DNA of 64,000 nt from Lingula anatina (lineage: Eukaryota > Animalia > Brachiopoda): assembly GCA_051362555.1 (NCBI GenBank), contig CM120648.1, forward strand, positions 18,720,587-18,784,586. The letters are read 5' to 3'. Below the pieces are notes generated by a model, which did no database searches, was not told the origin of the DNA, and saw nothing but the letters and a program-made list of their open reading frames with translations. Positions 2,433 to 34,075 of the stretch are shown in pieces (within the stretch, counting starts at the first letter, position 1; every line of letters begins with the position of its first letter). The position numbers and the translations under genes are program-made.

Positions 2433-4263
2433 TGTAACGAACGGGGCACCAATAGCTCTACACCGATGCCGACAAAAATTTACCAGTCCAACTTTAGTTG
2501 CCGTTCTAGAGCCGTTTAAAGACGAAAAGATGCCAAATACCCCATGATTTTAAACAAAGAAAGAAACGTTAGATTTGTACCGCTGTACGGGAAAGAATCA
2601 GCAATGACGTTCCAACCGTGTCGACGTGCCGTCAGAAAGTGTGACCGCGCGACCTGCGGTCATGACGTCACGGTCGCTATAAATAACCGCTCAGCTGATC
2701 GTTAGCGGCGTCTTTCAAGTTCTTCAAGTTGAAGCGGGGAAGAAAGAAAGTATCTTAGAGTGACATTCATAAAGCACAAGAGAGAGACAAAAAGTGAGTG
2801 AAACGGGCTGCGGGTAGCCCTCGGGCTACCCGACGTAGTCGGGAAAAATTGTGAAGAATTTTCTTTTCGAAGATTAGTCTATTTTTTTTTTTTTTTGTAG
2901 TATTTTGGCTGACAGTTATGTCAGCTACATGTACCGTTAGTTTTTAGCGAGTTTCTTAACGCAATCCTGTAACTGCATTCACCGTGACGCGCTCCGGAGG
3001 ACAAGTGGTGGCTGTCAGATCATGGGATCCCTTGGTTGCAGATGTTTAGGATCCTGGCCAAGGAAGCCGCTGCGGCATGGACGATTTTGGGTGAAAGGCT
3101 GATCGGGTCCAAGACGTCATGTAGGAGGCGCCGTCGACAGCTCGGAGCTGAAGGGAAAATGCCAGCCCGAGTGCGCAGTGTTCCCCCGTGTATGATCGGG
3201 GCAGTGTTATGTTCTTATTTTGTTTTAGTTCGGTCCGCCGGACGTGTCCCTTTGCATGCAGCTACCGGAAAGCGAAAAGAGACAGTAATGGTGAAGGACG
3301 TCCTAACCCTTGATCACGGTGCTCCCCTAGGAAACCTCCGCTCCCGCCGAGGCGAGACTGGGAACTTCCCATGGGACAGACGGGTCCAGGGCGTAGATAA
3401 TGCAGGAAATGCGCCACGGAAGATTAACCTTGCTCTTTCAGAGCTAACAGTCACAGGTTCCGGGTCCGCGGGGTTTACTGCCGCCAAGATGTTCACTGAT
3501 TGAACTGAAGGCCTCAGCGTTCCCCTACGATCTCGCCGCCCGTGGGTGGAAAAAGTGCCAGGACTGAGTTGTTGTGTGCATGAACCGTACCCGTGAGATT
3601 TTGCTGGTGGAGAGTGTCGCCGTGTCCACTTCAGAGTCGAGTCGTCGAACCAGGTTCACAGACCGAGGGTACAGTCTGTGAATCCCATTCAGGTTCCGTT
3701 CCCGCGGCTGCGGCCGTGTGATGCGTACCGAGCTCCTCTGCCATTGCGAATAACAGCCGGAATGCTGAGAAACTGAACAGACGCCCACCATGAAGATATC
3801 GTCGCCATCCCCTAGATGACGCCGCCGCGTTCAACGGTCGTCGTTATGCCGTCCCCAGGCGTACGATATCGTCGCCATCCCCTAGATGACGCCGCCGCGT
3901 TCAACGGTCGTCGTTATGCCGTCCCCAGGCGTAAGATATCGTCGCCATCCCCTAGATGACGCCGCCGCGTTCAACGGTCGTCGTTTCTACCATGAAGAAA
4001 GATGTCGATTTGCGCTACGCTACCATACCATGAAAAACGTTGCTCGATTTTATTACAAACTCTATGGCTTTAGGCCTTGTATATATCTCTTGAAATATCT
4101 CTTTTATTGAAAACAAATTGGTGTATAATAATAATATTTGAACTGTAACCATATGCCTTTGTTGTTAATTTCGAAGGACCGGGATATACTTTCCCTGTTT
4201 CAACATCATATTCCCACGTCGCGTCCGGGGTCGTGCGCCGACGCGGCGACCTCGCGCGTTACA
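2433..4263 (+). repeat. 5' LTR (1831 bp)
   Basis: TGT...ACA termini. Every ORF in the track recurs with an identical translation 3395 bp later. Contains a 70-bp x2.7 tandem repeat (3795-3985). Confidence 0.95.
2663..2686 (+). promoter_or_regulatory. LTR promoter: CRE palindrome TGACGTCA plus TATA box
   Basis: TGACGTCA at 2663-2670 and TATAAATAA at 2678-2686, repeated in the 3' LTR at 6058-6081. Confidence 0.55.
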
Positions 4264-4264
4264 T

Positions 4265-4282
4265 TGGTGGCAGCGGTGGGAT
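4265..4282 (+). other. Primer-binding site complementary to the tRNA-Leu 3' end
   Basis: TGGTGGCAGCGGTGGGAT, 1 nt after the LTR, is the reverse complement of ...ATCCCACCGCTGCCA-CCA of eukaryotic tRNA-Leu (AAG/TAG type, recalled sequence). Confidence 0.85.
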
Positions 4283-4375
4283 TGTCCTTCGAAATGTGCT
4301 ATGGTTACTTGGTCATGAATGGATGATAATTATTATCATTATTTTTTTTAATATCTCTTGTCAGAAGAAGTCAGA

Positions 4376-5380
4376 ATGGAAAATGTTAAGGTAGACAACT
4401 TTGACCAGTCAAGTGAGAGTGAGGTCATCTTGAATCTACGAGACCACGAGGGCCGCCACGCAGAGATAGACGGTGAGAGTGATACTTTGTTAGCGGGTCC
4501 ATCACCTAGAAAGAGACTGGTGAGTTCTCCATTCCCACCTAGAGACGTATTTCCAGGCAGCACAGGAGTCCAGAAAGGAAGGCCAAGCGTAATTCCCGAC
4601 CGCTACGATGGAAGCAGTCCTTGGTCCGATTACCTGGCGCACTTTGAGGGCTGTGCGATCATCAATGGTTGGAGCAGTTATGAGAAGTCAGCATTTCTCG
4701 CAGTCAGTTTGAAGGGAGAAGCTCAAGCCATTCTAAGTGATGCCCAAGCCGGGGGGAAAAGACTGTCCTACAAAGATTTGGTAGACTTATTACAGAGAAG
4801 GTTTGGTCCGGGAGAGGGAGCAGAAATCTTTGTGGCAGAGCTGCGTCATCGTCGAAGAAAACCAAATGAGAGCCTGCGAGAATTGGGACAAGCTATCCGA
4901 AGACTCACTGCCCTAGCCTATCCAGAGTTGAATGTGATGTCACAGGATCGCCTGGCCCGGGTACATTTCCAGGAAGCCGTGGTGAGCAAAGAATTGAAAT
5001 CATGTATTTTTCAGGCTCATTGTAAGACTCTGGAAGATGCAGTGACGGTGGCAGCAGGCATGGAGTCATTTCTGGATGCAGAAAGACTGAGCGAGGCTGG
5101 TAAACGGCAACTGCGGGTAGTACAGAAGACTGAAGAAGACGAGACCCAGGTGAAAAGACTGGAGGATGAAGTCCATGCATTAAGAAGAGAGCTTGCCGAC
5201 CTCAAAAGATCCATGCCTGTCTCATTCTTCGGTAAGCAGCCATTCAGGAGGGCAAAGGGAGTAATCTGCTACAACTGTCAACAGGAAGGTCATTTTGCCA
5301 GAGAATGCCCTCAACCAGCCAATGAGGGAAACGGCCAGTGGTCCACCCGAGGGACCGGGAGAAGACCCAATACTCACTGA
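4376..5380 (+). CDS. gag: Retrotransposon Gag with CCHC zinc knuckle
   Basis: Open frame from ATG 4376. Capsid-like motifs PDRYDGSSPWSDYLAHFE..NGWS and RRRKPNESLRELGQAIRRL; zinc knuckle CYNCQQEGHFAREC. Confidence 0.9.
   Translation: MENVKVDNFDQSSESEVILNLRDHEGRHAEIDGESDTLLAGPSPRKRLVSSPFPPRDVFPGSTGVQKGRPSVIPDRYDGSSPWSDYLAHFEGCAIINGWSSYEKSAFLAVSLKGEAQAILSDAQAGGKRLSYKDLVDLLQRRFGPGEGAEIFVAELRHRRRKPNESLRELGQAIRRLTALAYPELNVMSQDRLARVHFQEAVVSKELKSCIFQAHCKTLEDAVTVAAGMESFLDAERLSEAGKRQLRVVQKTEEDETQVKRLEDEVHALRRELADLKRSMPVSFFGKQPFRRAKGVICYNCQQEGHFARECPQPANEGNGQWSTRGTGRRPNTH
5326..5332 (+). promoter_or_regulatory. -1 ribosomal frameshift slippery heptamer G GGA AAC with downstream stem
   Basis: An X XXY YYZ heptamer in the Gag frame; the -1 frame is exactly the protease ORF. 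A GGTCC/GGACC stem starts about 7 nt downstream. Confidence 0.75.
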
Positions 5381-5778
5381 AGGTCCCAGTCAAAGAAGGA
5401 CGAACAAATGTACATAATGTTTCGAATGGGTTATTTATTGTTGGTAAAGTTGAAAATGTTGATGTTTTATTTTTAGTTGACACAGGGTCTTCAGATACCT
5501 TTTTAAGCGTTGAGTGTTACAGAAAAATTGCCGTTGACAAGAAAACAGAACTCCGTCAAATGACAGAACAAGTACGGCAAGCCGATGGCAAGCCGCTACC
5601 CGTATTGGGCCGAATGAAAGTATCCATTGACGTGCAGGATCAACCCACTGAGTTAGACGTTATTGTGGCGGACATACAAAACCAAGGTATTTTGGGCCTA
5701 GATTTTCTGGTGTCAACAGCAAGCGTTCTAGACTTTCAAGGTTTCAGTTTTCACTGTGAAGGTCAAAGACTGCCATGA
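5332..5778 (+). CDS. pro: Retroviral-type aspartic protease, expressed as Gag-Pro by -1 frameshift; pol ends here
   Basis: Catalytic motif FLVDTGS and GILGLDFL. Stop at 5776-5778, about 35 nt before the PPT. Confidence 0.85.
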   Translation, partial: RPVVHPRDREKTQYSLKVPVKEGRTNVHNVSNGLFIVGKVENVDVLFLVDTGSSDTFLSVECYRKIAVDKKTELRQMTEQVRQADGKPLPVLGRMKVSIDVQDQPTELDVIVADIQNQGILGLDFLVSTASVLDFQGFSFHCEGQRLP

Positions 5779-5811
5779 TTAGATGAATCTTGATTCGGGA
5801 GAATCAATTTT

Positions 5812-5827
5812 AAAAGGATGGGGGCAA
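5812..5827 (+). other. Polypurine tract
   Basis: AAAAGGATGGGGGCAA immediately before the TGT of the 3' LTR. Confidence 0.8.
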
Positions 5828-7658
5828 TGTAACGAACGGGGCACCAATAGCTCTACACCGATGCCGACAAAAATTTACCAGTCCAACTTTAGTTGCCGTT
5901 CTAGAGCCGTTTAAAGACGAAAAGATGCCAAATACCCCATGATTTTAAACAAAGAAAGAAACGTTAGATTTGTACCGCTGTACGGGAAAGAATCAGCAAT
6001 GACGTTCCAACCGTGTCGACGTGCCGTCAGAAAGTGTGACCGCGCGACCTGCGGTCATGACGTCACGGTCGCTATAAATAACCGCTCAGCTGATCGTTAG
6101 CGGCGTCTTTCAAGTTCTTCAAGTTGAAGCGGGGAAGAAAGAAAGTATCTTAGAGTGACATTCATAAAGCACAAGAGAGAGACAAAAAGTGAGTGAAACG
6201 GGCTGCGGGTAGCCCTCGGGCTACCCGACGTAGTCGGGAAAAATTGTGAAGAATTTTCTTTTCGAAGATTAGTCTATTTTTTTTTTTTTTTGTAGTATTT
6301 TGGCTGACAGTTATGTCAGCTACATGTACCGTTAGTTTTTAGCGAGTTTCTTAACGCAATCCTGTAACTGCATTCACCGTGACGCGCTCCGGAGGACAAG
6401 TGGTGGCTGTCAGATCATGGGATCCCTTGGTTGCAGATGTTTAGGATCCTGGCCAAGGAAGCCGCTGCGGCATGGACGATTTTGGGTGAAAGGCTGATCG
6501 GGTCCAAGACGTCATGTAGGAGGCGCCGTCGACAGCTCGGAGCTGAAGGGAAAATGCCAGCCCGAGTGCGCAGTGTTCCCCCGTGTATGATCGGGGCAGT
6601 GTTATGTTCTTATTTTGTTTTAGTTCGGTCCGCCGGACGTGTCCCTTTGCATGCAGCTACCGGAAAGCGAAAAGAGACAGTAATGGTGAAGGACGTCCTA
6701 ACCCTTGATCACGGTGCTCCCCTAGGAAACCTCCGCTCCCGCCGAGGCGAGACTGGGAACTTCCCATGGGACAGACGGGTCCAGGGCGTAGATAATGCAG
6801 GAAATGCGCCACGGAAGATTAACCTTGCTCTTTCAGAGCTAACAGTCACAGGTTCCGGGTCCGCGGGGTTTACTGCCGCCAAGATGTTCACTGATTGAAC
6901 TGAAGGCCTCAGCGTTCCCCTACGATCTCGCCGCCCGTGGGTGGAAAAAGTGCCAGGACTGAGTTGTTGTGTGCATGAACCGTACCCGTGAGATTTTGCT
7001 GGTGGAGAGTGTCGCCGTGTCCACTTCAGAGTCGAGTCGTCGAACCAGGTTCACAGACCGAGGGTACAGTCTGTGAATCCCATTCAGGTTCCGTTCCCGC
7101 GGCTGCGGCCGTGTGATGCGTACCGAGCTCCTCTGCCATTGCGAATAACAGCCGGAATGCTGAGAAACTGAACAGACGCCCACCATGAAGATATCGTCGC
7201 CATCCCCTAGATGACGCCGCCGCGTTCAACGGTCGTCGTTATGCCGTCCCCAGGCGTACGATATCGTCGCCATCCCCTAGATGACGCCGCCGCGTTCAAC
7301 GGTCGTCGTTATGCCGTCCCCAGGCGTAAGATATCGTCGCCATCCCCTAGATGACGCCGCCGCGTTCAACGGTCGTCGTTTCTACCATGAAGAAAGATGT
7401 CGATTTGCGCTACGCTACCATACCATGAAAAACGTTGCTCGATTTTATTACAAACTCTATGGCTTTAGGCCTTGTATATATCTCTTGAAATATCTCTTTT
7501 ATTGAAAACAAATTGGTGTATAATAATAATATTTGAACTGTAACCATATGCCTTTGTTGTTAATTTCGAAGGACCGGGATATACTTTCCCTGTTTCAACA
7601 TCATATTCCCACGTCGCGTCCGGGGTCGTGCGCCGACGCGGCGACCTCGCGCGTTACA
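5828..7658 (+). repeat. 3' LTR (1831 bp)
   Basis: Direct copy of 2433-4263, including the 15-T run. Confidence 0.95.
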
Positions 7659-7802: not shown

Positions 7803-9262
7803 TGTTAAATTTAATTTGACTTGACATTTGAATGAATTCACTGTTTTAAAACTTTTTTGAACTACTCGTTCCGCTGTTGTAAAATTCCGCTTTTTATGCT
7901 AAGCCGGTCAAGGACCCGGATGTAGCGTTTCTTAGAGTTATGGATATGAAAAAAGCACAAGCGTATCAAACTGATACAATTTGTTGAGTGATTTGATTCG
8001 TGATGCGATTTATTTCGAAGGCATCAACACTGGCGACGAGGATTAACACTAGTGCAAAACTGTGAGCCAACTTTCTTTGAAAAAATGGAGGAAAAATGTG
8101 AAATTACGGAATTCGAACCGTACAGAAGTCCGGAGACATTAGGGTCACGCCCGACGCGATGGCTAGACAGTTTTAACCTCTTCGCTGACGGAAAAGATTG
8201 ATCTTTTCAAAACCAACGGACGGCATGAATAATGAACAAAGATAGAAAATTAAAAATACATGACAGAGGAGACACGCGCTTATGTTGTATTCAGCAGGGA
8301 CAGGTGTACAAGATATTTTCAGGACTCTCCCAAAACACAGGTTAGAAACATGAATATACATAAGACAGTTAACGCTTTGAATGAAATTGGAACACCAGAA
8401 ACTGTGAGTATGATGAAACCGAAGTCATTTGACAAACCAAGCCAGTCTAAACATTACGAGTTTAGACATGAAAAACGAAGTAGAAACTCCCTGACTGAGA
8501 AAACATGGAACGTTGGATCACTTTGCAAAAGTCTCCAAAACTGAAACTATTATTCATGTAAATGACAGCTTTGAACATGATAATCCAGGAGTGCATATAC
8601 ATTTGGTGTGGAACCAATGCAATATACACAGAAGACATGGAGGAAATAGAGGAGGTGTTAATCTCAGTGTATTACCAGATTCAGGTGCATATTGTAATAT
8701 CATTGATGAAAATACATGGAGAATGCTGAAATCCAAGAGAAATAAACGTGGCTCTTGTGGAGGACCAGAAAACAAACAGTATTATTCATACACGTCTGAG
8801 AAACCTTTAAAAGTGAAGGGGACATTCGAATGTGACGTAAAGGCAAGCAAAGAAAGAGACCAGTAGTAGTGAAAGGACATGGGATTTGATATGAGTTGAT
8901 TAGTTTTGAGAATTTTCAGTGTGGTTTAAGGAATAAAAGTTGGAGTTCATATGCTCTTCTGCAAATGTTTAAAAAGACATTTTAAAGACTGAACTGTCAA
9001 TTAACATGTTTTGAAAGGACCGTTTCTCTCCAAGAAAGGAAGGGATGTTGTGTTTTGACTTGACATTTGAATGAACTGTTGTTAACTTGGTAGAGTTACT
9101 TGTTCCATTGTTGATTCCTTTAATAATTATAAGCTTGTCAAGGAGTATCAAGGAGTATTATATCTTAGTGTTATGGATTTGAAAAAAGCGCAAGCATTGC
9201 AAACTGGTTCAATTCATTGAGTGATTTGATTCGTGATGTGATTTAATTCAAAAGCATTGATA
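7803..9262 (+). mobile_element. Decayed Gypsy-like LTR element with short diverged LTRs
   Basis: Similar ~220-bp repeats at ~7803-8029 and 9046-9262 (TTTGACTTGACATTTGAATGAA...GAGTGATTTGATTCGTGATG). PBS TGGCGACGAGGAT at 8031 (tRNA-Ser GCT type). PPT AAGAAAGGAAGGGA at 9032-9045. Broken HFAKV (zinc-knuckle tail) and LPDSGAYCNII (protease) remnants. Confidence 0.75.
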
Positions 9263-11152
9263 CTGGTTTGTTTTTGTGCACATGTAATTCTCTTTTAATT
9301 GTACATCTATATCTGTGCTGGAGTATACATTTTTTTTTCAGAATTTACATGTATGTACAGTACTGTAGCCAGCATGCAAGTTGAATTGAAACAGTTACTG
9401 CATGGTTATTTATAATTTTGTTATAACTCTCCATCATCTAAAAAACAATGTTTTTTCATTCATTATTCAAGATTTATTCATTACAAAACTATATTCATTA
9501 GTGATTATTATTATTAATGATATGTTTGAATTAGTTTAAAAATGACAATGTATAATATTATTTAGGTTGAGGTGTGCAAAAATATTTCCCCCTCAAACCC
9601 CCCCCCATGTACATGCATAATTAATTACAATTTTTGTAATTTGTGTTAATTCAGATTCGATGAGCAGCTTTGTGTTTAAAAAAAATGTTGTTATAACTGT
9701 TTTCTTTACACGTATGTAAGTGACATTTCCTCCTGTTAAGTGTCTGTATATTTGCCTTTTTGCAGTGTAGTTTTTTTTTTTCAAACATACATTGTTTTGT
9801 ACAAAAAGACAAGGAGTGGCCCTTAATTTGTTACATGTTAGTTGCCAGCAAGGTTATATAATGTGTAAAAATTTTGTTTAGGGTTTTAGCACAGAATAAA
9901 TACTTGAATCTTGAATTTTGTATGTCTTTTTTTTATAGTAATCTTATTGAATAATTAAAAATAATTAAAAAAAAGAAAAAAAAAAAAAACAATCTGGGCC
10001 ATATGTGGTCCATGTCCGGCCCTAATCTGGCCCATTTGAATATGATCTGGCCCACTTCTGGTCCACATCCGGCATGCCATACCTTTGCCAGATATTGCCA
10101 GATCTGGGCCGACATCTGGCCACATGAGCAAATGTGAAATAATTAAAAAAAAAAACAATCTGGGCCATATGTGGTCCATGTCTGGCCCTAATCTGGCCCA
10201 TTTGAATATGATCTGGCCCACATCTGGTCCACATCTGGCATGCCATACCTTTGCCAGATATTGCCAGATCTGGGCCGACATCTGGCCACATGAGCAAATG
10301 TGGACTGGGCCAGATGTGGCAATGTCTGGGCCAGATCTGGCCCAAACATTGCCACATCTGGCCCACATGTGGCAAGCCAGACGTGGGCCATACCTTTTGC
10401 CAGACATTGCCAGACGTTGCCAGATCTGGGCCAGATGTGGGCCAGATCACTGAGGCTGTCTGGGGTGAAATACTCAAAAACTGGCAGAGATACACCCATG
10501 GTTACTATTGACCTTGAATAAGAAGACACATACTGGCAGCCAAACTGTGACCTTGAAATTGACCTTTGACCTACTTTTTCATCTTAAACTAAGTCTTGCA
10601 AATTTTTTGCCTCTTTTATCTGCAAAAATGGCAGAGATACACTTATAGTTACTATTGACCTTGAATAGGAAGTCATATACTGGCAATCTTACTCTACGCT
10701 GCTTTGTAATCTGGAACATAGTCGATCTTACACGTCAGACTTTGTGTGCAAATCGACTTTGTGATTTATGAAAAATGTCTGTATACTTCACTTTGTTCTT
10801 CAGCAGTGATTCAGTATCCAGATTACACACCCTTTTTATCTATCTGTCTATTTTACTCGAAGTTTGTTTTACCCTGATATAAATAACGCACCATAGTATT
10901 TTTGGGAATTTCTCAATTTAATTCAAAAATTTAATTAAGCTGCGATTTATCGACTTTTGTCATCGTGAAAATGTGAGATTTTACATAACACACTGTTACT
11001 CTCAAGCACATATGCAGGCATCCACCTCTCTAGATTTTCTCTCGCTTCCTCTCTGCTATCACTTCACAATAAATATAACGTCTGCAAACATCATCGTTCA
11101 CCTTATCCATGAGTCCTTTTGTCAATCTGAAGCATAACATATGTATTACCAG

Positions 11153-14100
11153 GTGAGTTTAATGAACGGCTTCGCCGATTGTGTGAAAGTGGTAAGATTC
11201 CAGTATACCGACAGCGAGTAGCTATTGTTGGACCTTACGGTGTGGGGAAGACTTATCTCGCCAAGCGCCTCATCCATGAGGAATATATCAAAGAAGAAGA
11301 TGCAAATACAACTGGCGTGAATATATACCGCCATAGGTGTGTTGTCCATAAAGCTGGCCGATCCTGTTGGATCAGAGGAAAAGGTAAGCAGAATATAGGA
11401 AAACGTTTGACACATATGGAATATGTTTATAAAGAATACAAAGAACAGAAGATAAGACATTTTCAATTTTACCACATAATTCACAATAAGGAATTATACA
11501 TACGTGTACGTGTGGGTGTCCAAATGTGTCCTTCCCTATCTTAGTATGGTAGACGAGGGGCTGAGTGAAATAGTACCTAAATAAGTGGTGCCTTTGTATT
11601 GTTATCAATCAATTGACATACATGACACTTTACAATCTACTCCTACAGCCCATTGATTATTTTTTAACTGGGTACAAACACTATAATTTCATTCTTTGTA
11701 AAAACACCATGCTTTATTCTACTCAATATTGAATTGAATTTTTCAACGGTGTAGCCTGATACGTACACTCAGAAAGGGTACATTTAGATACAACGCTTGA
11801 TCTACCTGTATGATCCTTCCAACTATTCTCAGATGATCCAAAAGACCAGTTTGCACAAAACATGGCAATTGGAGTACAGAATTCAGATATGTTTTGTGAG
11901 CCGGACTTAACAGTATTGGACCAAACGCCACTAGAGGAATCCCCACCAGATTCAGAAGAGAATATTAATAACATGCTGACAAATAGAGGTATTGTACATG
12001 ATTGTCTCGAATAGTTCATCTTGGTGCAATTTAAACAGATATTTGTAGTTATTCTTCTTTTTTGCCAAGAGATTCCACCTTCTATGTGTTTTTCTTTGGC
12101 CATTCCACATATATGTGCCTTGAAAACGTTTTTGTTTACTTCAAGGTTGATTCTTTTTCTGTTAGAATGTTGTTTGATATTATTCTTCTCTTTATTCTAC
12201 AGCCGCTTCCCCTGATGACAGTGAATCACCTGCCTCTCCTGACAAAGCAGCAGGTAAGTAGTTCACATGTAGTAAAACAAAATTCTCGTGTATTGCTCAG
12301 AATGTTCGAGAGTTTTTCTTAGCTTGTTGATAAGGTATGTGAGTTTCTATCTTCTTATTTTCATCATACTGGGACTTTGAACTCACATGGGCATGAAGCC
12401 TGGTGGTAATCAAATTTTCTTAATGTCCATGTTTTTAATAGAAGATAATTAAAATTTTGTGGTATTTATACAGTTGACCATTATGTTATATTGCATCAAA
12501 AACCTACTTTGTGCACTATCACCATAACGTTATAAAAAGAAAACTGTTACCTATTTTATATTTACAAAAAATGATTCTTAGGATTGACAAACAGCTTAAA
12601 TTAGAAAAACCAGCTCTTTTGAATTATCCTTTTTATCGAATTATGCATTTTTTGTGAAATTTTTATTTATCTCATTCTGGTGTGAGCTTGAACTCTCATG
12701 GGCCTGAAGCCTTATGCTTTTACTTACATCGTTATATACTGTTGTGCATAATTAAATTTTGGGGTTGACTGTGCAGTTAAGCATTGTATTACATTAGAAC
12801 TGACAGCCTCCTATTTTATGCATTATTATTTTCTGCTTTTTTAAAATTGTGACTTAGATATTTCATGGGCCTGAATACCGTTGCTAGTCACATTTGGGTG
12901 ACAAGCCTCTAATCTTCCATTGGGTAACTACTAGCTAAATTCAGAGCTATAAGGTCACTTGCCTAAATTAAGTTTCAAGTGGCAATAAAATGAGATCATA
13001 TAAAACACACATGTTGAGATTCCCTGTAAACTCCCATAGGTTAAGTTTTCTGCCAGATAACAGTGTCCATAATAGGGAAGCAGTGATAATTATGCAGATA
13101 AATGTTGTTTAATTTTGCAAATTAGTTTTCAAAAAATTATTTTGTATAATGCCAACATTAATGCTAGTTTTAAAAGCAGCTTTACTGAAATGTTTTGTTT
13201 TTAATTTTTTTCAAACACTGAGGGTTTCAACTCAATTTTTAACTCCCCTCCACCTGAAGCTCTGCACATTTTCTGTTTTCCCACAAAAGCAGTTGTATTG
13301 GTATTTATGTATTTCAGCATTATGTAACATTATATTATTCTATGCACTGCTTTCATTTGTCAAATATTGTGATTTTCATTATGTGAATTTGAACTCTCAT
13401 GGTCCTGAAACTGTAATCTTATCATAGGGGCAGATTGGGATCGTCCTCAAGGTTTTCAGGAAGACGGTCAGATTTTAAAGTTAACATTGACGGGTATCTA
13501 TTTTTTTTGTTGGAAGACCATCTAAAATGGAGGGTGGATTAACAAAGATATTTTAAAATACTGTCAGAAAATACATTTGGATCCGCTCCTGTTATTGACC
13601 ATGTTACCTGTTGTGCATGACTTAAATTCAGTGTCGATTGACCGTGCTATTACAAGTATTATTTATTATTGCATCAAAATGAGAAATTAACCTATTTTTT
13701 GCATCTTTATTTATTTATTTATTTATTTTGTCTGTAGACTCGTCCTTCAAGAAATACATGCCTTCAAGAAATCGACGAAAACTGGAAGTGCATGTTTTTT
13801 GCACTGTTTTTCCTGTCATGCCCATCGTAAACACTGTGTTGTCAAGTAAAAGGAAGCGTCTGATACAAAGTATCAAATGCGGCATTGACGTGCTTACATG
13901 CGATGTGTTCAGTACACTTTGTTTACACTGACAAGTCGAGGTCAGAAATGCACAATGTTTTTCTATGTAATTACGCAGTTTCAATTTTGATTAGTGAATT
14001 TTCTTTTATCTGCATGGTCATTTTCCGAACATTTGTATAAGCCACGAAATATTTCTCATCGGAAAATCACCCAGCAGCTTTCCAAGTACAAGCGAGTGAC

Positions 14101-15995
14101 GTCATGATGCACTTCCGAATTTCGTCAAGATCTTGAAGGGATTAGCGTTATGGTTTGCTGCACATTTAAAGCGTTCTGTCTCAAAATGTACTTGACTGCT
14201 TGGATTGAAATTTACAGAACTTATTCTTCACATGATATCACACATATGTGCTTAATTTGAGAGCTTTAGCTGTTATATATTTTCTACAGTGCCCATTCAA
14301 AATTGAAAAAGAGCTATTTTCCGTCAATTTTTCTTGAAGGGCAGGTCTACATTTGACAGATTTGCTGTCTTGTTTTATCTGGGTACAAACACGACAATTT
14401 AATTTTCTGTAAAATAAGTCTTCTTTATATGACTGAGGATTATTTTTCTTTTTGCCAAGGGATTCCACCTTCTATGTGTTTTTTGTTGGCCATTATACCT
14501 TATGTACCTTGAAGACTGGGCACTTGATACCAATTATACTTGATCTTATTAGACGCATTTTCGATGTAATTTATTTATTTTTATACAATATTTATAGACC
14601 AATATCCCAAAGTTATATGTTAAAATTTTGTAAAGAAATTCCTTTATCTTAGCCACGTTTTTGTTTACTTTAAGATTGAGTCATTTTCTGCTAGAATGGT
14701 GTTTGATATTCTTCTTCTCTTTATTCTACAGCCGCTCCACCTGCCTCTCCTGACAGAGCAGCAGGTAAGTAGTGCATATGTAGTAAAACAAGATTCTGTC
14801 TTTTGCTCATAATCTGCGAGAGTTGTTCTTAGCTTGTCGATTAAGTATGTGAGTTCCTGCATTCTTATTTTCATCAAACTGTATTAATAATGTTATATTA
14901 AAATTGACTATACCTTACAATTTTAATTGATTTTAATGAATGTTAAAACATTCAGTATTTATCACCCAGTTATGTTTTGAGCTTACTCACTTGTATTCAA
15001 CAGAGAGGATACATTTTTAAGAAAAAAATGTTTTTTTTTTTTGCAAATTGCCGATAAACCTTCAGAAACAGATGAAAGCTTCTATTATATTTGATAACTG
15101 TTTCACAAAGTTAATTGACACTAAATACATTCAAATTTTGTCAATGATTACGATACTTTTTTATGCTAAAAAGTTTTATTTTAACCGCACTGTTCATTGT
15201 ACAGTCCTTTTCAAAGGTGAAAGTGGATCTCATACCTCTGGGGAAGAAAACATGAGTAGTATAAGAATGTTAACGATATGTCGATGTATGAACAGTCCCT
15301 GACAAATGAAATAAATTAGATTGAAAGCATGTCTATAAAGATTAAGGTCTCGTCTCTCACAACCCCCCCCCCCCCCCCCCCCCCCTTGAAGAAGGCACAT
15401 CAGCTGAAAACTCAATCGGGCGCTTGATACCAATTATACTTATTACATGTATTTTCAATCTAATTTATTTATTTTTATACAATATTTATACAATATACTG
15501 CGGGATTAATACCATGATTTGGATAAATATGCACGCATTGCAATACATAACAATATGCATTATGCTAAAATCATTTAGTTCGGACATAGCTTATTGTATT
15601 CATCGCAGTGGCAGAAAGGGACCATCTAGATGATATTGACAAGGAGCTATTGGAAAAAATTGAGAAAATTGCCCGAGGGGAAGATGTGGAGCCAGAGAAA
15701 CAGGTCACAATTTGGGATTTTGCAGGACAGGATGTCTACTACACCACGCACCAAACGTTCCTCTCAGAGCGGATCATCTACTTGTTGGTATTCCGACTTG
15801 ACCAGGACCTCGATGATAAAATCCCTGTATACAGGGGAGAGAAGACGCTGAAAGGTATTGTTGAGCTTTATGTATATATCTTTCATGTATAAGCTACTCA
15901 GGGCCCTCATGTAAATAAACTGTCAACTGTGTGTAATTTCTTTATTAAAAGACCCACATTTTTAAATCTCTCTATTGCTCTTAATAAATAAATAA

Positions 15996-16063
<68 letters not shown>

Positions 16064-19000
16064 CATTGAGTTTTTAGTAGTGTTAATTTTAAATGGTTCC
16101 GATGAGTGTTTTAAGATTTTAATATTGTAGTAATTTTAAGGATTTTAGTTATATTATCCATTGTAAGCCGCGCAATAAGAAACATTATTATTGTACCACC
16201 AGCGTTAGCGCTGGCGATACACATGGTTTCGGTCCCGTCCAGATCGTTCCGCCGGACGGCTACCGTTACCGCTTCTCCTCCTAGACGGTAAGGGCCCCCG
16301 TACCCATCTCTTGGATTTAGGTCACCTATAATCTCAACTCGTTCCACGTAAAATTTGGGCTTTGTCCGTATTGGGGTCTGGGTGTGGCACTCATTGCAAT
16401 GCACCCTTGTCCAAAAATGGCAAAATTAAATGCTAATTATCTACTCTTCCGAAGGGGTTATGGGAAAAATTTCTACAGACGGCTTTCCAAAAGTCATATG
16501 TGTAGATTTCAAATATGCCCTTGGATTTGACCTTTGACCTTTACTTCATGGTGGTGAAAGCAAAACGTGCAGTACAGTACGATGAATGACCATTGGGTGT
16601 TCATCTATTTTGGATCAGGGGGTTGACAAACACCCAATGGTCATTCATCGTGGAAAATTTCATGCTTTTATCATCTTTTGCACAATTCTGGATAAATTTG
16701 GACTGAGCCGCCTGACTACTTTTCACCATGAACTAAACTTTGCATATTTTGCTTCCCTTTTATCTCCAAAACTGGCAGAGATAGGTCCATAGTTACTATT
16801 GAAGTTGAATGGGGAAGTCATATACTGGCAATCTAAATGTGACCTTGAAATTGACCTATGACCTACTTTTCACCATGAACTAACCTTTGCAAATTTTGTT
16901 TCCCTTTTATCTCCAAAACTGGCAGAGATAGGTCCATAGTTACTATTGAACTTGAATAGGAAGTCATATACTGGCAATCTAAATGTGACCTTGAAATTGT
17001 CCTTTGACCTACTTTTCACCATGAACTGAACTTTGCAAATTTTGCTGCCCTTTTATCTCCAAAACTGGCAGAGATAGGTCCATAGTTACTATTGAACTTG
17101 AATAGGAAGTCATACACTGGCAATCTAAATGTGACCTTGAAATTGACCTTTGACCTACTTTTCACCATGAACTGAACTTTGCAAATTTTGCTGCCCTTTT
17201 ATCTCCAAAACTGGCAGAGATAGGTCTATAGTTACTATTGAAGTTGAATAGGAAGTCATATACTGGCAATCTAAATGTGACCTTAAAATTGACCTTTGAC
17301 CTACTTTTCACCATGAACTGAACTCTGCTAATTTCTTTCTCTTTTAACTCCTAACCTGGCAGAGATAGGTCCATAGTTACTATTGAACTTGAATAGGAAG
17401 TCATATACTGGCAATCTTACTGTGAAATTGACCTTTGACCTACCTTTTGATGAACTTAACTTTGATTGTACCATTTTAAGTTATATATATATTTTTTGCA
17501 TATTTTGAAAATTCTTGTTGATTGCATTTTTACAGCTTGTCAAGCAAAAGACTGGTGGCTGTGTCCCTTATTTTGTGTATGTGGGGGTCTATACAAATGC
17601 GCTTGCTCCAGCTGGTGGTACAATATTCGGAGGCGGTATCGCCCCTCTGATCCTCTAGTTATTATTATTATATTAATTGGTGCTATTTTTTAGCAGTGCT
17701 GAGGAGAAAACACTGATTAATATTCATCTTTGCAATAACCTCAAGGCTTTATATGTATTTTTCAGAGTTTATTATGTTTTGGTTAAACTCAATCCATATG
17801 CACACTATTGGAAAATTGAGGGAAGAAGACAAAAATGCCATGCCATACGTCTTGATTATTGGAACTCATAAGGACATGTTATGCCCACAGGTGAAAACGT
17901 TTTTCTTATCACAATTATTCAATTACTACCATACATAATCTATGTATAATTTGTATCCCTTCAACCATATCACATTGCGATTCCTGATGAGTGACTTAAT
18001 TATTTAGAAACTTTTCACTATGTGACTATTTGTGGATGGCATGATTAATGTTGGGGGAAAAGGGTGTTCCTTGCTCCCTGTACTCCATCCTAATTTTATA
18101 GGTTCATTGCAACATACCCCATTTCTCAACTTGAACAAAGTGGACTATATCATATACACACATACACATACACACACCCCGGTAAATGTTTTCTTTTGCA
18201 CTGACAATTTAACATTATTATATGGTAATGAACAACAACTACAAAAATGACTTAACTAGTTTTTATTCACAGGGCGACATTGAAAAGATTTTTGATAAAC
18301 TCAAGAAGTGTCTCGACGACAGGCAGGTACTCAAGGACCACGTCTACCGATATTTTGCCATAAGCAACTTGGCCGAAGATGATGGGGAGTTCGCTGAAAT
18401 AAAAAAAGCGATCGAAGATTTGTGCGGTTATAGCAGCAACAGTATTGCTACTGTTCAACATCTTTCAGTGAATTGGATTAAATTGGAAATGAATTTGGCA
18501 GAGAAGAGTGAAGAAACCCCCATCATATCTATTGAAAAACTGAGGGAAATGGCAAAAAGGGTAGGACTCCCTGATGAAGAATTACAAGAAAAATTCATTC
18601 CTTACCATCACCGTCAAGGCGACATCCTACACTTCAAAGTTGATGGACTGGAAAATGTTGTCATAATAGATCCACTTTGGTTAGCAGTTGTGTTTTCTGC
18701 CATCATGACCAATGCCAGCAGTCAACCTGGAGGCAGTCACTTTGATCTCCTGAAAGACGATCTGAAAAGAGGAGTGCTCAATGAGGAGGTATTTGATGAA
18801 TATCTAAAACAAATCAAAATGGCCGAAAAAAAGACTGAAATCATTCAACTTATGCTGCATTTCGACTTGATGTTAGAAATATCCCAAGCAGTTGAAAACC
18901 CTCTGCCTGGGTCTGGAAAGAGAAGATTCGTCGTGCCCAGTATGCTGGTATCCAATATCAGTGTAAATAACGCCTTGTCTGAGACGGATCCACAGAAATA

Positions 19001-21212
19001 TTTGCTTATCGCATTCCCTCACATTCTGTTTCCTACCGGGTTGTTTCATCGTCTGATCATCCGTCTTCTTAGGAAGTATAGAGCTCAGGAATATAAACAT
19101 AACATTCCAGTTGTTGGGTTTGACCATGCCTCCTTCCGATTGGGAGACGAACAATCGGTGCTCCATCTCGCCATTGAAGAAAGGGCCATGAGAATGATGA
19201 TAACAAATGCTACTGGAAACAAACCAAAACCTGACATATACTCCAACGCACGGGAAACCGTTGAAAAAGAACTGTCAACTCTTAAGGACACGTACTGTCC
19301 CAGGATGCAGTTAGGCTTTCGCATTCGGTTAAATGACAAAGGAAAAGATATTCCAATAAAAGCAGAAGACATCCAAGAAAACGATGAGATATGTAGATCT
19401 GTAGAGGGCACTGAAATGCCAATCGATGTGACACCGTATCGTGTTTGGTTTTCAGGTAAGCATTAAAATTTTAGGTAGTTTTACTGTGAACAGACATTAT
19501 GTTCCTGAATATAATTAGGGGTAATGTAGTCATTGAAATCGGTGATACTTAAACTGATGTAAATGCAACTAATCATATTGGGTGATGTACTATGATGTAC
19601 ATGAAGAGAATTAATATTTCAAATTGTTGCCAATAAACCAAACTTTATATATTTTAAAATAATGTAACTTGATAAATACCCAAAGGTGTTTTTTATAATC
19701 CCCGAAAATGATATCTTTGCAGATCTTATCAGCATTTTTCCCCTTGGCAAATTTTGCGCATCGCCTTTGTTAGAACAGTATAAATATCGCCCACAAAATC
19801 ATGCAATTTATATTTTAATCATTCCAACAATACGAGCTTTACATGGGCATCAACGTCTGTGTGAGGGTAAGACTGTTGCAATTGAACATTTTTCATATAA
19901 ACTGTCCCATATTAGATTTATTACCCAGCCATGCACATCGCTAGAATTGTTTTAACTTTTAATTTAAAAACAAATGCCCAATCATATTTGGAAAGCATTT
20001 AATGACAAAAATAAATATTATGCCCTGGTCGTATTTTGAGAATTTACCTGCAGTGCAGAAGGTAAATGTACAGCAGGTTACCTTTTGCTCACAACACATA
20101 TCTATTAATAAGTTTCTTCATACTTAAATTACATGTATATTATTAATTGCTAATTATGGTTCATCATGCGCATATTCTTGTAATCCTTCTTATTTTTACA
20201 GATAGTGCACAGGCAGTACAAACAAGAGATCCAGGTAATTTTTTATTTGGTATTGCTTAGCTTAGTCTAAGAAGTACGCGCATTATTCTTATTTTAACTT
20301 CTATTTTTTTTACTTTTAACTTACAAATCTTCAATATAAAGAAATAGCATATATTGTTACTAGCATGTACCCCCAGTTCATATGACAGTACATTTTACTG
20401 ACTACATATTTCTCCCATAATGCAGTGGTGGTTGCCGTATATTTTACACAAACACACTAGTATACTACTCTATCTCTTTCCCTATAAAATTCTTGTACAA
20501 AAAGCATTGATCATTATCATATTTTTCTATTAATAGGTGTGAATGCCCCAGATGCGTCATCTATTTATACACAGAGGTTTGCAAGGGTGAGTTATCTCGT
20601 TATTGAACTTGGAACGAAAGTCATTAGAACTTTCTTCCTCAAGGATGTTGTTAGGCCTAGCATCACTAATGGTGAGCACATCAGTGATAAAGATGCAGTG
20701 CTTCAGTTTTTTGGTAAGCATGACGTGATAAGGGAACTTGAGAAACTCAAGAAAACAAAAGTCATATATGCTTCTCAGTGGAATCTGTTGTACCCTGCCT
20801 CTGGTCATACAGATGTGGAAATGTTTGACATTACATTGCTGGTGTTATTGATAAGAAAACTTCACCCAGACAAAGCCAACCTGAAATGGTCAGCGCCCAA
20901 AGAAAATGCCACTTTACCTTCCTCTCCACAAACAACACAAGGTTTCATTGACCACATCCAACGGCTTAAGAATGTCAGGAATTATATACAGCATTCAAGT
21001 ATGAGATCCAAGACATGGAGAAATTCTGCACGAATTGGGAAATCGCCTGTGCTTCTGTTCTAGCACTTGGTGCAGATCCAAATGAAGTTGAAAAGGCACA
21101 GAAATCCATCTTTAGCATACAGGAGATAGATACAATAGTGTGTGAAATACGCAGCTCGGCCGAAGTTACAAACGGCATTTCGACAACAGATTTGACAGGC
21201 TTGAATTATTAA
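11153..21212 (+). CDS. ROCO protein: Roc GTPase + COR + C-terminal DZIP3-like HEPN RNase domain (5' exon(s) not found; frameshift near 21000)
   Basis: GT-AG exons in continuous frame: 11153-11383, 11833-11988, 12203-12253, 14732-14764, 15609-15854, 17766-17890, 18273-19455, 20202-20234, 20537-21212. Roc motifs: G1 GPYGVGKT, G2 NTTGVNI, G3 IWDFAGQDVYYTTHQTFL, G4 IGTHKD, G5 FAISN. COR motifs: NWIKLE, GDILHF, VIIDPLWL, FVVPSML, GLFHRLI. HEPN motifs: QWNLLYP, FDITLLVLLIR, RLKNVRNYIQH. Confidence 0.85.
16001..16062. repeat. (TA)n microsatellite
   Basis: Visible perfect TA run. Confidence 0.95.
16186..17659 (+). mobile_element. Intact Helentron-associated element (HINE family A) in a ROCO intron
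   Basis: Subterminal inverted repeats TATTGTACCACCAGC / GCTGGTGGTACAATA, a 3' GC hairpin followed by CTAGT, AT-rich flanks without a clear TSD, and an internal ~146-bp x5 tandem array (16715-17465). Confidence 0.8.
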
Positions 21213-21458
21213 TATTCTCTGTATGTGCCATCCTCATTGTGTTAGCCATAAATTACAAGAAGTGGATTTAGGTAGGGAAGGGGTCAGGGGGATCCTGGTT
21301 TCTGAAAAAAATCACACTAGTATTCCCCTCTTGAAATTAGAATTTTGACTAGCTGAATTATAGTTCTAAATAGAACCGAATGACACCATTCACCCTATAA
21401 AGTATCAACATTTTTCGGGGCCTAAAGTGGGCCTTTGAACCCCATGCCAGGGTGGTGT

Positions 21459-31351: not shown

Positions 31352-31538
31352 AAAAGGCAAGGAAGTCTTTCTGGCCCTTGCAGCAATGCAGAGGAGGATA
31401 GTTACAGCAATATCCCTGTGTTTGGAAAAATCCTGCTCAGTATGGCGTATGACTCCAGAAAAGGTTGGCTGATTATACATATTTACCGATGCCAAGACCT
31501 TGCTCCAGCTGATGTGAAGAAGAATAGATCTGATCCGT

Positions 31539-31569
<31 letters not shown>

Positions 31570-34075
31570 CTGTGTTTTTTGCAAGATACGGTATAATTTG
31601 AGATCTTAATACCATGTGAAAGCAAAACATGCCATTTGTAGCTTATCTCCAACAAAAACAAAATTCATGGTGTTATCCAAATGTGTCAAACTTAACTCAT
31701 TCATCTAATTTTTACACTGTTTAATTTATGATCGTAATATTTTGAAATATCTCTGGGTTGCAGCTATGTCAAAACCTACCTCTTGCCAATTAAATCAAGA
31801 GGTGGGAAGAGAAAAACAAAGATAAAGAAGAATACATTGAATCCAACATTTGATGAACCGCTGCATGTAAGTTTCAGCATAAACTCTAAAGAAAATAAAG
31901 AAAATACTGTTTCATGAGTTGGTACCGAGCTAAGCATTCATGGTGAGCAATTCAGTGCATCAATAAATTGTTTTTTAATTAATGTACATGTTGTGATTTA
32001 TCTGCTGACAGTCGCCCACTATCCTGTTTCAGTACACCATCACTAAGAATGAGCTGGAAAGAAGAACCCTGTGGTTGTCAGTCTGGCACAGTGTCAAATT
32101 TGGCCACAATGTGCTCCTGGGTGATGTTGTTTTGCCTCTTAATAAACAGAACTTCAATGACACCTCACCACAGTGGTTCCAGCTATCAGGAGTAAGTTGG
32201 AGAAGTTACAGTAGTATTCAAAGCAATGTTAAATATCAATTTTAAAAGCAGGTTGAAGCATATACAGCTACTTTTTAATGATGTTAATTATAATTTACAG
32301 ACACATTGTGTTAATTTAGTTTGTGAATCCCAAGTTTTCCTGCAATACAGGACCATATGGCTGCTGGGGATCGAGACCAAGACGTTACTTATGTTACTGA
32401 CCCTCACAGCATCAAAACAAAGAGAGGGCAAGTTCTAAACCAGGCTGATGTGGGCAACCAGTGGCAAAGGTCAACATTATTGGAGACATCATTACAACCC
32501 AACTTTGACAACCAGCAGGATGACTTCCAATCCCAGACAACAAGAAAGACTGTTGTATCAGACCAATACCAACAAAACCAACCATCATCACAACCTACCT
32601 TTGGCAACCAATGGTTGCAACAAGGCAATTTCCAATCTCAGACACTGCCTGGTGAGTCAACAGGACCAAATATATCCTATCATCAACAAGGAGAATCCCA
32701 GCATAGCAGACTACCTCAGGAGCCAGTCACTGACCACCACATGGAGGAACAAGGTGGTGACCACTTTCAAACTAGGATGAAATCAGGCCATGACTTCCCA
32801 CCTTTACCCCCAAAACAGGACCCTGTGGCTGCTGAGGATCAAGACCAGGGGGTTACTGACCCTCAGGCCATCAAAACAATGGGAAACCAAGCTCTTAACC
32901 AGGCCCATGGGGATAATCAGTTAGAAAGATTACCTACAGCAGTGCCACATGAGATTGCTGGGGTTCTAAGGCAGATCCCCTTTAATACAGGCAACACAAA
33001 TGTTACCCTCAATTTGCAGCTGGTTAATCAATATTATAACTCAGAAAAGGCATCAGTGACACACATGAAAGAGAACGATGTCACAACATCTTTTCATAAA
33101 CATATCCCTCCACATGTGAAAAAACGACTGAATGAGACACTTTCTCAAAATGATGTATGGGACCAAGTGAAGAAGATGTATGGCATTTCAGATGAAATCC
33201 CACGTCCTCCTGATATTGTGGCTTCTTTGTTGTCACAAGATGAGGGTTCTATTGCATCTTTCATCAGTATGTTGTTAAAGTTGAAAGAATGCCGCAGAGA
33301 AAGACAACAAGACATTCCACAAGACTTGATTGATGAAGTCAAGGTAATTGATACTATGGTCTAAAATATAGTCAAATAAAGTAACCAGTCTTTAAAATTT
33401 TAAAATGACAATGTGTGTTTTGACTCCAAAACCATTTTCCACATTTCAAACATATTCTTCCTTTGTACTATCTTAATTTTAATTCAACAGAGTTTTTTAT
33501 TTCTTCAACTAGAACTAAATGTATGAGACAATGGGCTGGCTGTTTGGGATTATTAAGTAAATTGTTAGTTGTTTACACAGCGTCATGGTTTGAATGTTTG
33601 AATGAACAGAAGTTGTAAATAAATGTGGCTTACTATATTTCTCTTCTAGAAAGGACTTATGAGTGAAATGGAGTACAACAGACTGAGAGAGAAAGTGGTT
33701 GACTTTGCTGAGGAACTTTCGATTCATATAGAAAGAACTTTAGATTACCTGTATCAGTTTAGTGTAATACCAGATGAGGAGACAACAAAGCTTAAAAATG
33801 ATGCAAAGAGAAATCCACAAGAAGCTTGTAGAAATTTGTTTAAAGCACTCTTTGCGACCAGTCCTAAAAAAGAGCCAATTAAACACCTGAAAGCTGCATT
33901 CAGGGATTGTGGTCTTGGGTATCTGGCAGATGAACTAGAAGTCAGCTACCAGGACGTAGAGGATGAAATACAGAAACATGGAAGTGGCCGACCTTCTTGT
34001 GAAGAGCCGTTGGCGATAGGAATGTCAGCTCCCCCCACACCTGCAACAGGTGAAAACCCTATTGGAGAACATTAA
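31352..34075 (+). CDS. Chimeric protein: synaptotagmin-like (Slp4/5) C2A domain + Q-rich linker + death-domain-like + CARD-like domain (5' exon not found)
   Basis: GT-AG exons in frame: ~31352-31536, 31764-31866, 32033-32191, 32351-33343, 33650-34075 (TAA), with AATAAA at ~34183. C2A: [13 protein letters not shown]|[27 protein letters not shown]|[20 protein letters not shown]-like: [40 protein letters not shown]-like: [46 protein letters not shown]. Confidence 0.75.

What the first reader, a model, noticed from the sequence alone, without database searches (positions are those of the whole stretch)
11153..21212. Roc-COR GTPase fused to a HEPN RNase: candidate GTPase-gated antiviral or cell-death nuclease
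Seen: complete G1-G5 Roc motifs, COR, then a DZIP3/hRUL138-type HEPN domain with an R-x4-H motif (RNYIQH), and no kinase or LRR in view. Established: HEPN RNases (RNase L, Ire1, Cas13, bacterial toxins) need two HEPN domains brought together, and Roc-COR modules cycle between dimer and monomer with nucleotide state. Inference: COR dimerisation could switch on the RNase, making an animal analogue of prokaryotic NTPase-effector defence systems.
Basis: partly seen in the sequence, partly recalled or inferred. Interest (0 to 1): 0.75.

Follow-up and report, generated by a model that had tools for sequence, protein, structure and literature searches.

The report
GTP-switched RNase candidate in lamp shells
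A lamp-shell (brachiopod) gene splices an LRRK2-type GTP switch to a predicted RNA-cutting domain and a predicted membrane tail, likely behind a fast-changing propeller sensor outside the window, so it is likely an animal version of a bacterial sensor-switch-weapon immune protein, but the copy read here has its reading frame broken just after the RNA-cutting motif.

Summary
Domains confirmed: Roc (G1-G5), COR and HEPN_DZIP3 with RNYIQH, and RNA reads join them. Three things were missed. (1) This copy's last exon has two frame breaks, the first right after RNYIQH. Reads from other samples and five database copies are in frame and end in a hydrophobic tail (stop at 21271, not 21212). (2) A Lingula anatina model 98% identical over the Roc part starts with an NHL propeller whose top face varies strongly; that exon is not in the window. 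(3) Close Lingula paralogues carry a caspase instead, and Roc-COR-HEPN recurs in bivalves, likely by separate fusions. The design is in print for bacteria (LRR+AP-GTPase+COR+HEPN, Kaur 2021 supplement); I found no animal description. Best reading: ligand-triggered, GTP-gated proximity that switches on a membrane-anchored HEPN RNase (0.5). 'COR dimer = on' is doubtful, because bacterial Roco dimers are the GDP state. RNase activity, dimer and antiviral role are untested. The scan earlier noted sister NHL-, TIR- and Bcl-2-Roc-COR-caspase genes elsewhere in this genome. New variant of a known kind.

The parts
11153..11383 (+). First exon in the window: Roc G1 (11230-11253) and G2 (11305-11325); phase-1 acceptor, no Met before G1
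   Evidence: Pfam Roc E 4e-6. Joint to 11833 in 36/11/81 reads of X14/X15/X16. 96% identical to P0008 314-392.
11833..11988 (+). Exon of the long acidic insert between G2 and G3
   Evidence: Joint and depth; 93% to P0008
12203..12253 (+). 51-nt symmetric Pro/Ser/Ala mini-exon of the Roc insert
   Evidence: GT-AG ends and P0008 match; read depth; its joints were not among the rows shown
14732..14764 (+). 33-nt duplicate mini-exon, likely optional (P0001 has one repeat, P0008 two)
   Evidence: GT-AG ends; intron duplication 12126-12371 vs 14655-14881; low depth
15609..15854 (+). Roc exon with G3 WDFAG (15713-15727)
   Evidence: Pfam Roc E 2e-8; depth 40/43/139; loose ends of 45 reads at 17764 match its end
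17766..17890 (+). Roc exon with G4 GTHKD (17861-17875)
   Evidence: Joint to 18273 in 32+7 reads of X14
18273..19455 (+). G5, COR-A and COR-B
   Evidence: Pfam COR-A E 1e-21. Pfam COR-B does not hit. A model of the 96%-identical P0243 matches the whole CtRoco COR (3dpt, TM 0.76 by target, E 4e-12).
20202..20234 (+). 33-nt linker exon between COR and HEPN
   Evidence: Joints from the COR exon (7+11 reads) and to the last exon (10 reads) in X14
20537..20994 (+). DZIP3-type HEPN up to RNYIQH (20977-20994), with an Ex3K motif (ELGTK) in the first helix
   Evidence: Pfam HEPN_DZIP3 E 9e-15; motifs
20995..21063 (+). First frame break (the window has 4 bases fewer than other sequences) and the premature stop at 21061-21063
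   Evidence: 7 of 27 X14 reads and one X2 DNA contig carry 4 more bases; P0001, P0003, P0098, P0243, P0244, P0245 are in frame
21000..21164 (+). Rest of the HEPN fold (last core helix) and the start of a long helix, out of frame in this copy
   Evidence: 98% to P0098 256-311 in another frame; helices 189-205 and 210-218 of the P0244 model
21167..21271 (+). Second frame break (1 base fewer), then a predicted tail-anchor helix (about 21200-21256) and the stop of intact copies
   Evidence: 12 of 21 X14 reads, 2 of 3 X11 reads and one X2 contig carry one more base; hydropathy 2.38 over 19 aa
2433..7658 (+). Young LTR retroelement (gag and protease only), inferred to lie in the first intron, between the unseen NHL exon and the Roc exon
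   Evidence: LTRs differ at 1 of 1836 aligned bases; zf-CCHC and aspartyl protease hits; that it is intronic is inferred

Best explanation
The gene joins a Roc-COR GTP switch to a HEPN domain with a predicted RNase site and a predicted membrane tail, likely behind an NHL propeller sensor, and intact copies likely act as one-chain immune receptors in which ligand binding would open the switch and bring two HEPN domains together to cut RNA, while the copy in this window is frame-broken after the motif and likely inactive as a nuclease. Shown: domains, splicing, transcription in some samples, frame breaks, effector swapping among paralogues, top-face variation of the NHL. Inferred step 1: at rest the GDP-bound protein is closed, with the propeller packed on Roc-COR as the LRR is in CtRoco and the HEPN domains out of register. 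Inferred step 2: an invader molecule (RNA or protein) binds the propeller's top face, GTP loads and the module opens. Inferred step 3: membrane tethering plus the long helix after HEPN raise the local concentration, so canonical HEPN dimers form. Inferred step 4: viral or host RNA is cut, stopping translation or killing the cell; GTP hydrolysis sets the threshold and resets the switch.
For: Splicing of Roc to COR to HEPN. P0008 is 275/280 identical over the Roc part and starts with an NHL propeller. A HEPN-tail model (P0245) is the next locus number on a contig of the same length, 45,860 bp. P0008 and P0101 differ at 33 of 54 top-face positions and 11 of 190 others (Fisher p 2e-17; top face as defined in PMC4015489). 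The same Lingula Roc-COR clade (support 100) holds C-terminal HEPN, C-terminal caspase and N-terminal HEPN members. Other family members end in death, DED, CARD or TIR domains, which act by proximity (established knowledge). 22 of 23 fused HEPN domains keep RN-x3/4-H. NHL-Roc-COR-HEPN also occurs in the mussel Sinanodonta (P0114). One clade for all C-terminal HEPN fusions is rejected (p-AU 6e-52). The bacterial counterpart is described as a counter-invader system.
Against: No activity, ligand or induction data. The DZIP3-type RNase role is called putative or possible in the passages I read. The fold match to HEPN RNases is only middling (best Z 7.0, rmsd 4.1 over 117 residues) and Foldseek found nothing at E 0.001 or better. 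The NHL exon is not in the window, and its link rests on a predicted gene model. Reads were laid at 90% likeness and may come from near-identical paralogues. The membrane tail is absent from all 10 bivalve fusions checked and from P0003, so it is not essential to the design. The polarity of the switch is borrowed from one bacterial Roco. The top-face positions were chosen after I had seen the two-sequence alignment.
Confidence: 0.5

Rival explanations
1. The HEPN domain is a non-cutting dimerisation or RNA-binding module, and the protein signals like kinase-less Roco proteins through partners.
For: No RNase assay of a DZIP3-type HEPN appeared in the passages read. Many relatives end in non-enzymatic death, DED or CARD adaptors.
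Against: R, N and H are the near-invariant columns of the fusion alignment, and 22 of 23 domains keep the motif. HEPN swaps with an enzyme (caspase) in the closest paralogues.
Confidence: 0.17
2. The RNase is on when COR is dimeric: the GDP or empty dimer places two HEPN domains together and GTP switches them off.
For: HEPN follows COR-B after only a 16-27 residue linker in Lingula. The whole COR fold is present. HEPN RNases need the canonical dimer (abstract of PMC8266594).
Against: It makes the resting state the toxic one if CtRoco polarity holds. HEPN lies ahead of Roc in 5 of 17 HEPN-bearing hits, where COR geometry cannot be the same.
Confidence: 0.13
3. It is a stress-regulated, organelle-anchored RNA-decay enzyme, like Ire1 in spirit, and not an anti-pathogen device.
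For: Predicted tail anchor; NHL domains of TRIM-NHL proteins bind host mRNA through the top face.
Against: Many near-identical copies, domain shuffling, a hypervariable top face, a broken copy, and expression in only one of three RNA studies fit fast-turnover immune families better.
Confidence: 0.12
4. For this copy only, and compatible with any reading above: the two frame breaks are assembly errors and the locus is intact.
For: Every other sequence that shows the site is in frame or carries the extra bases. The window has no excess of private amino-acid changes upstream of the break (11 of 595, against 12 of 595 for P0243).
Against: The first break is a 4-base loss outside a homopolymer. Both breaks fall within about 170 bases of one exon while the rest of the frame is open. 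No listed run holds more than 56% of the window's words, so the source individual was not sampled. 20 of 27 X14 reads at the site are not listed with the insertion, for reasons the output does not show.
Confidence: 0.35

Closest known systems
Prokaryotic LRR + AP-GTPase (Roc) + COR + effector counter-invader proteins, including LRR+AP-GTPase+COR+HEPN of Thioflexothrix psekupsii (WP_086489369.1, WP_086489735.1; Kaur et al. 2021, PMC8195603; section 15 and Fig. 6 source data read)
   Same: Variable repeat sensor, Roc-COR, then a swappable C-terminal effector including HEPN and caspase; several paralogues per genome
   Different: Animal, spliced gene; NHL propeller (inferred) in place of LRR; DZIP3-type HEPN; predicted membrane tail. 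No sign of direct descent: the Roc-COR groups with animal sequences.
Animal HEPN_DZIP3 + NACHT or NB-ARC receptors of pearl oyster and corals (PMC9646362, PMC10236652, passages read; PMC3710099 Table 1 passage)
   Same: Same HEPN family with Rx4-6H, fused to an NTPase switch and a repeat sensor, expanded in sessile marine animals
   Different: The switch is a Ras-like Roc-COR GTPase, not a STAND ATPase; HEPN is C-terminal. The PMC3710099 fusion list for DZIP3 does not name Roc.
Invertebrate Roco-effector fusions: Owenia ROC-prodomain caspase (PMC11463336) and Aplysia TIR-ROCO proteins (PMC9334734), passages read
   Same: Kinase-less Roc(-COR) joined to an immune or death effector in lophotrochozoans
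   Different: The effector here is a predicted RNase; those papers list single cases and no HEPN version
LRRK2 / DAPK1 / CtRoco
   Same: Roc-COR tandem; nearest solved structures by sequence and fold
   Different: No kinase, LRR or WD40 found; long acidic insert between G2 and G3; not an orthologue
RNase L, Ire1, RnlA, Csm6 (dimer-activated HEPN RNases)
   Same: Rx4H and Ex3K motifs; modest fold likeness to Csm6; activity expected only in the canonical dimer
   Different: Gated by a GTPase module, not by a pseudokinase, kinase, antitoxin or CARF domain; activity not shown

Membership tests
Roco (Roc-COR) proteins | Roc GTPase domain with G1-G5 motifs | tested here: met
   Pfam Roc on two exons; motif positions; G1, G3 and G4 match homologues
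Roco (Roc-COR) proteins | Complete COR directly after Roc | tested here: met
   COR-A by Pfam. Whole COR by fold of the 96%-identical P0243 against 3dpt, TM 0.76. Pfam COR-B itself does not hit.
Roco (Roc-COR) proteins | GTP binding and hydrolysis, nucleotide-dependent dimer cycle | not testable with these tools
   Needs biochemistry
DZIP3/hRUL138-like HEPN | PF18738 match above cut-off | tested here: met
   55 bits against cut-off 27 for the window piece; 68 bits for intact P0001 and P0098
DZIP3/hRUL138-like HEPN | R(N)x4-6H plus upstream Ex3[KR] | tested here: met
   RNYIQH and ELGTK; motif definition read in PMC3710099
DZIP3/hRUL138-like HEPN | Complete helical fold in this copy | tested here: not met
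   Frame break right after the motif removes the last core helix; intact in the database copies
DZIP3/hRUL138-like HEPN | Fold likeness to solved HEPN RNases | tested here: inconclusive
   Csm6 ranks 1 and 5 (Z 7.0, 6.2) and AbiF rank 2 (Z 6.9; HEPN label recalled), but no Z of 8 or more, and unrelated helical bundles are tied
DZIP3/hRUL138-like HEPN | RNase activity in a canonical dimer | not testable with these tools
   No assay; the dimer prediction could not be run
Prokaryotic AP-GTPase-COR counter-invader proteins (Kaur 2021) | N-terminal fast-evolving LRR | tested here: not met
   No LRR; an NHL propeller with a variable top face in P0008 takes this place. It works like this family but is not a member.
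Prokaryotic AP-GTPase-COR counter-invader proteins (Kaur 2021) | Variable C-terminal effector among paralogues of one genome | tested here: met
   HEPN, caspase, death and CARD endings in Lingula
LRRK/DAPK kinases | Protein kinase domain in the same chain | tested here: not met
   No kinase hit in the window exons or in P0001, P0008, P0098; sequence upstream of the window was not seen
HEPN-NLR (STAND) receptors | NACHT or NB-ARC ATPase | tested here: not met
   Only sub-threshold P-loop matches; best hit is Roc

The most novel reading that the evidence does not exclude
Sessile marine animals have repeatedly built a second class of intracellular immune receptor parallel to NLRs, centred on a GTPase: hypervariable NHL propeller, Roc-COR switch, swappable weapon. 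The HEPN version is a membrane-anchored, ligand-triggered RNase, an invertebrate counterpart of RNase L with sensor, switch and nuclease in one chain, and a direct RNA-cleavage read-out of the LRRK2-type nucleotide cycle.
Probability: 0.3. Interest if true: 0.8.

Novelty: new variant of a known kind. Interest (0 to 1): 0.52.

Why it matters
If true, it identifies an antiviral or cell-death RNase pathway in lophotrochozoans, including farmed bivalves, and shows animals re-assembling a bacterial defence design several times. It would give the first functional test of the widespread DZIP3-type HEPN family, for which the papers I read give only a predicted RNase role. It would also offer a simple enzymatic read-out of which Roc-COR state (GTP or GDP, monomer or dimer) is the signalling one, a debated point for LRRK2. 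The score is held down because the design is listed for bacteria, HEPN-NTPase fusions are known in animals, nothing is shown about activity, and this copy is broken.

Tried and rejected
No whole genome is held for the window, so paralogue count, dN/dS and the upstream exon could not be read directly. The dimer prediction for COR-B plus HEPN never ran because the queue was full: no verdict. No indexed RNA holder was listed; RNA came from raw-read runs with the same species label. A search of the whole window with the N-terminal parts of P0008, P0005 and P0006 found no upstream exon. A candidate mini-exon at 15205-15253 was rejected: it has no GT donor as drawn, closes the frame, and has almost no reads. 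A word-based search with the HEPN region found only 2 Lingula proteins among 802 candidates; the HMMER search reached bivalves. Foldseek of the HEPN model gave nothing at E 0.001 or better. PADLOC had no match for 4 of 4 proteins. The HEPN-only tree was poorly resolved (3 of 19 inner branches starred) and is not used for origins. Look-ups of earlier findings by sequence and by nearby place returned nothing.
Full report
What is in the sequence. The region is a spliced animal gene on the + strand. Its closest named relatives are all Lingula anatina proteins, so the window is most likely Lingula. Pfam finds Roc on exons 11153-11383 and 15609-15854, COR-A on 18273-19455 and HEPN_DZIP3 on the last exon. 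Nine GT-AG exons give an open frame of 860 residues with G1 to G5 in order and RNYIQH at 20977-20994.

Transcription and splicing. Raw RNA reads with the same species label were laid at 90% likeness in two calls (7 different runs, 6 RNA and 1 DNA, of 21 listed). X14 shows GT..AG joints 17890 to 18273 (32+7 reads), COR exon to the 33-nt exon at 20202 (7+11 reads, 11 of them with two other letters at the joint) and on to the last exon (10 reads, exact acceptor not resolved). 45 loose ends at 17764 match the end of the G3 exon. X14, X15 and X16 join 11383 to 11833 (36, 11, 81 reads). The mini-exon joints were not among the rows shown. Exon depth is about 20-140 in study P5 and near 0-5 in X11, X13 (P4) and X17 (P6). 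Reads may come from near-identical paralogues, so they show that the family is spliced this way, not that this haplotype is.

This copy is broken. Pfam matches only positions 7-96 of 144 of the HEPN profile. The window has 4 bases fewer at about 20995 than 7 of 27 X14 reads and an X2 DNA contig, and 1 base fewer at 21167 than 12 of 21 X14 reads, 2 of 3 X11 reads and an X2 contig (7 further indel rows were not shown). Six database models read through the first site (P0001, P0003, P0098, P0243, P0244, P0245); P0245 and P0098 are identical where they overlap. Five of the six end in a hydrophobic helix (2.26-2.89 over 19 residues; window frame 2.38). The window's frame stops at 21061, keeps the motif, and loses the last core helix and the tail. 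Private amino-acid changes upstream are not in excess (11 against 12 of 595), so the breaks are recent or are assembly errors. I put a true null allele at about 0.65.

The missing front end. The first exon has no Met before G1 and read depth starts at about its edge. P0008 (LOC106159696) is 275/280 identical to the window over the Roc part and begins with an NHL propeller whose best solved relatives are TRIM3 and TRIM2. P0245 (LOC106159697), a HEPN-tail model 94-98% identical to the window, is the next locus number on a contig of the same length. One gene split into two models is the simplest reading. No NHL exon lies in the window; a 5.2-kb LTR element sits upstream. A second Lingula NHL (P0101) is 264/309 identical to that of P0008 yet is joined at the same position to a Roc only 84/273 identical, which points to exon shuffling. 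The two propellers differ at 33 of 54 top-face positions and 11 of 190 others.

The family. In Lingula, one Roc-COR clade (support 100) holds the window, C-terminal HEPN (P0001, P0003), C-terminal caspase (P0002), no recognised effector (P0004) and N-terminal HEPN (P0005). Other Lingula and Owenia members end in death, CARD or caspase domains. Among the 150 best HMMER hits of P0001, 17 carry HEPN by my own profiles, 12 behind COR and 5 ahead of Roc, and about 55 carry death domains (the query favours HEPN-bearing hits, and 59 rows got no flanking-domain label). Named examples are from Sinanodonta, Potamilus, Mytilus, Mercenaria and Nematostella; two Mytilus HEPN calls rest on my profile and did not reach Pfam at 1e-4. 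P0114 of Sinanodonta is NHL-Roc-COR-HEPN. On 31 chosen rows, one clade for the 12 C-terminal HEPN fusions is rejected (p-AU 6e-52; 4 changes at least; quick tree, LG+G4, with long-branch warnings). This fits repeated fusion but cannot tell gain from loss. Rows without a recognised G3 motif (P0243, P0007, P0147, P0103) were left out of the trees. 22 of 23 fused HEPN domains keep RN-x3/4-H.

Structure. The P0244 model (pLDDT 79, pTM 0.70) is helical, with the motif at the end of a helix as described for HEPN, and one long helix running into the tail. Its best fold matches are Csm6 (Z 7.0) and AbiF (Z 6.9), middling for a helical bundle; Foldseek gave none. The P0243 model (pLDDT 67, pTM 0.48) matches the whole CtRoco COR. 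No dimer model was obtained.

Mechanism. I read intact copies as sensor, switch and weapon in one chain. The effectors that swap into this position act by induced proximity (established knowledge), and HEPN works from either end, so general proximity fits better than a fixed COR geometry. CtRoco is dimeric when empty or GDP-bound and an open monomer on GTP (abstracts of PMC5714945 and PMC11052575). [quoted passage not shown] I therefore favour: closed GDP state off, ligand plus GTP opens, HEPN dimers form on a membrane. All of these steps are inferred.

What is in print. Kaur et al. 2021 (PMC8195603; passages, section 15, and term searches of two supplements) describe bacterial LRR+AP-GTPase+COR proteins with at least 24 effector types. 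Their Fig. 6 source data list two with HEPN. The animal file had 0 hits for 'COR+HEPN' but was cut when stored, and it lists a coral protein with HEPN far ahead of APGTPase+COR+kinase. PMC3710099 (passages) lists DZIP3 fusions without Roc; its additional file was not read. PMC9646362, PMC10236652, PMC9334734 and PMC11463336 (passages) cover HEPN-NLRs, TIR-ROCO and a ROC-caspase. Brown-algal ROCO immune candidates were seen only in a search listing. Six searches showed no paper describing an animal Roc-COR-HEPN or NHL-Roc-COR family. Subscription papers and unread supplements may hold one, and the domain strings are already visible in public annotations.

Verdict. A real, transcribed architecture and a new animal variant of a known kind of conflict protein. 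This particular copy is probably disabled, and the biochemistry is untested. Interest 0.52.

Noticed in passing
window 31355-34075 (+): A separate gene: three exons of a C2 domain (Pfam C2 hits on two of them), a Q-rich exon with a helical end, then a CARD-like last exon (Pfam E 0.0014, below cut-off; 36% to the CARD of Roc-COR protein P0012). A C2-CARD fusion could be a membrane-recruited death adaptor.
   Followed up: partly
window 2433-7658 (+): LTR retroelement with near-identical 1.8-kb LTRs, gag and protease but no RT or integrase ORF; a very recent, likely non-autonomous insertion.
   Followed up: partly
window 8254-8866 (+): Fragmented ORFs that look like decayed gag/protease of another retroelement (by eye, not scanned).
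   Followed up: no
window 16716-17425 and 10473-10693: 146-bp tandem repeat (4.9 copies) in an intron and a related copy upstream; heavily covered by RNA reads from elsewhere in the genome.
   Followed up: no
window 12126-12371 and 14655-14881: Intron-plus-mini-exon duplication that lengthens the Pro/Ser-rich insert inside the Roc domain; copy number differs among paralogues.
   Followed up: partly
proteins P0110, P0123, P0124, P0107: Other domains placed ahead of Roc-COR-death in relatives: Med25 PTOV, SH2, Macro/EH, Neuralized. They may be integrated decoys, as in plant NLRs (speculation).
   Followed up: no
proteins P0006, P0100: Bcl-2-like domain + Roc-COR + caspase in one chain; already noted by the scan (e1-10418754).
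   Followed up: partly
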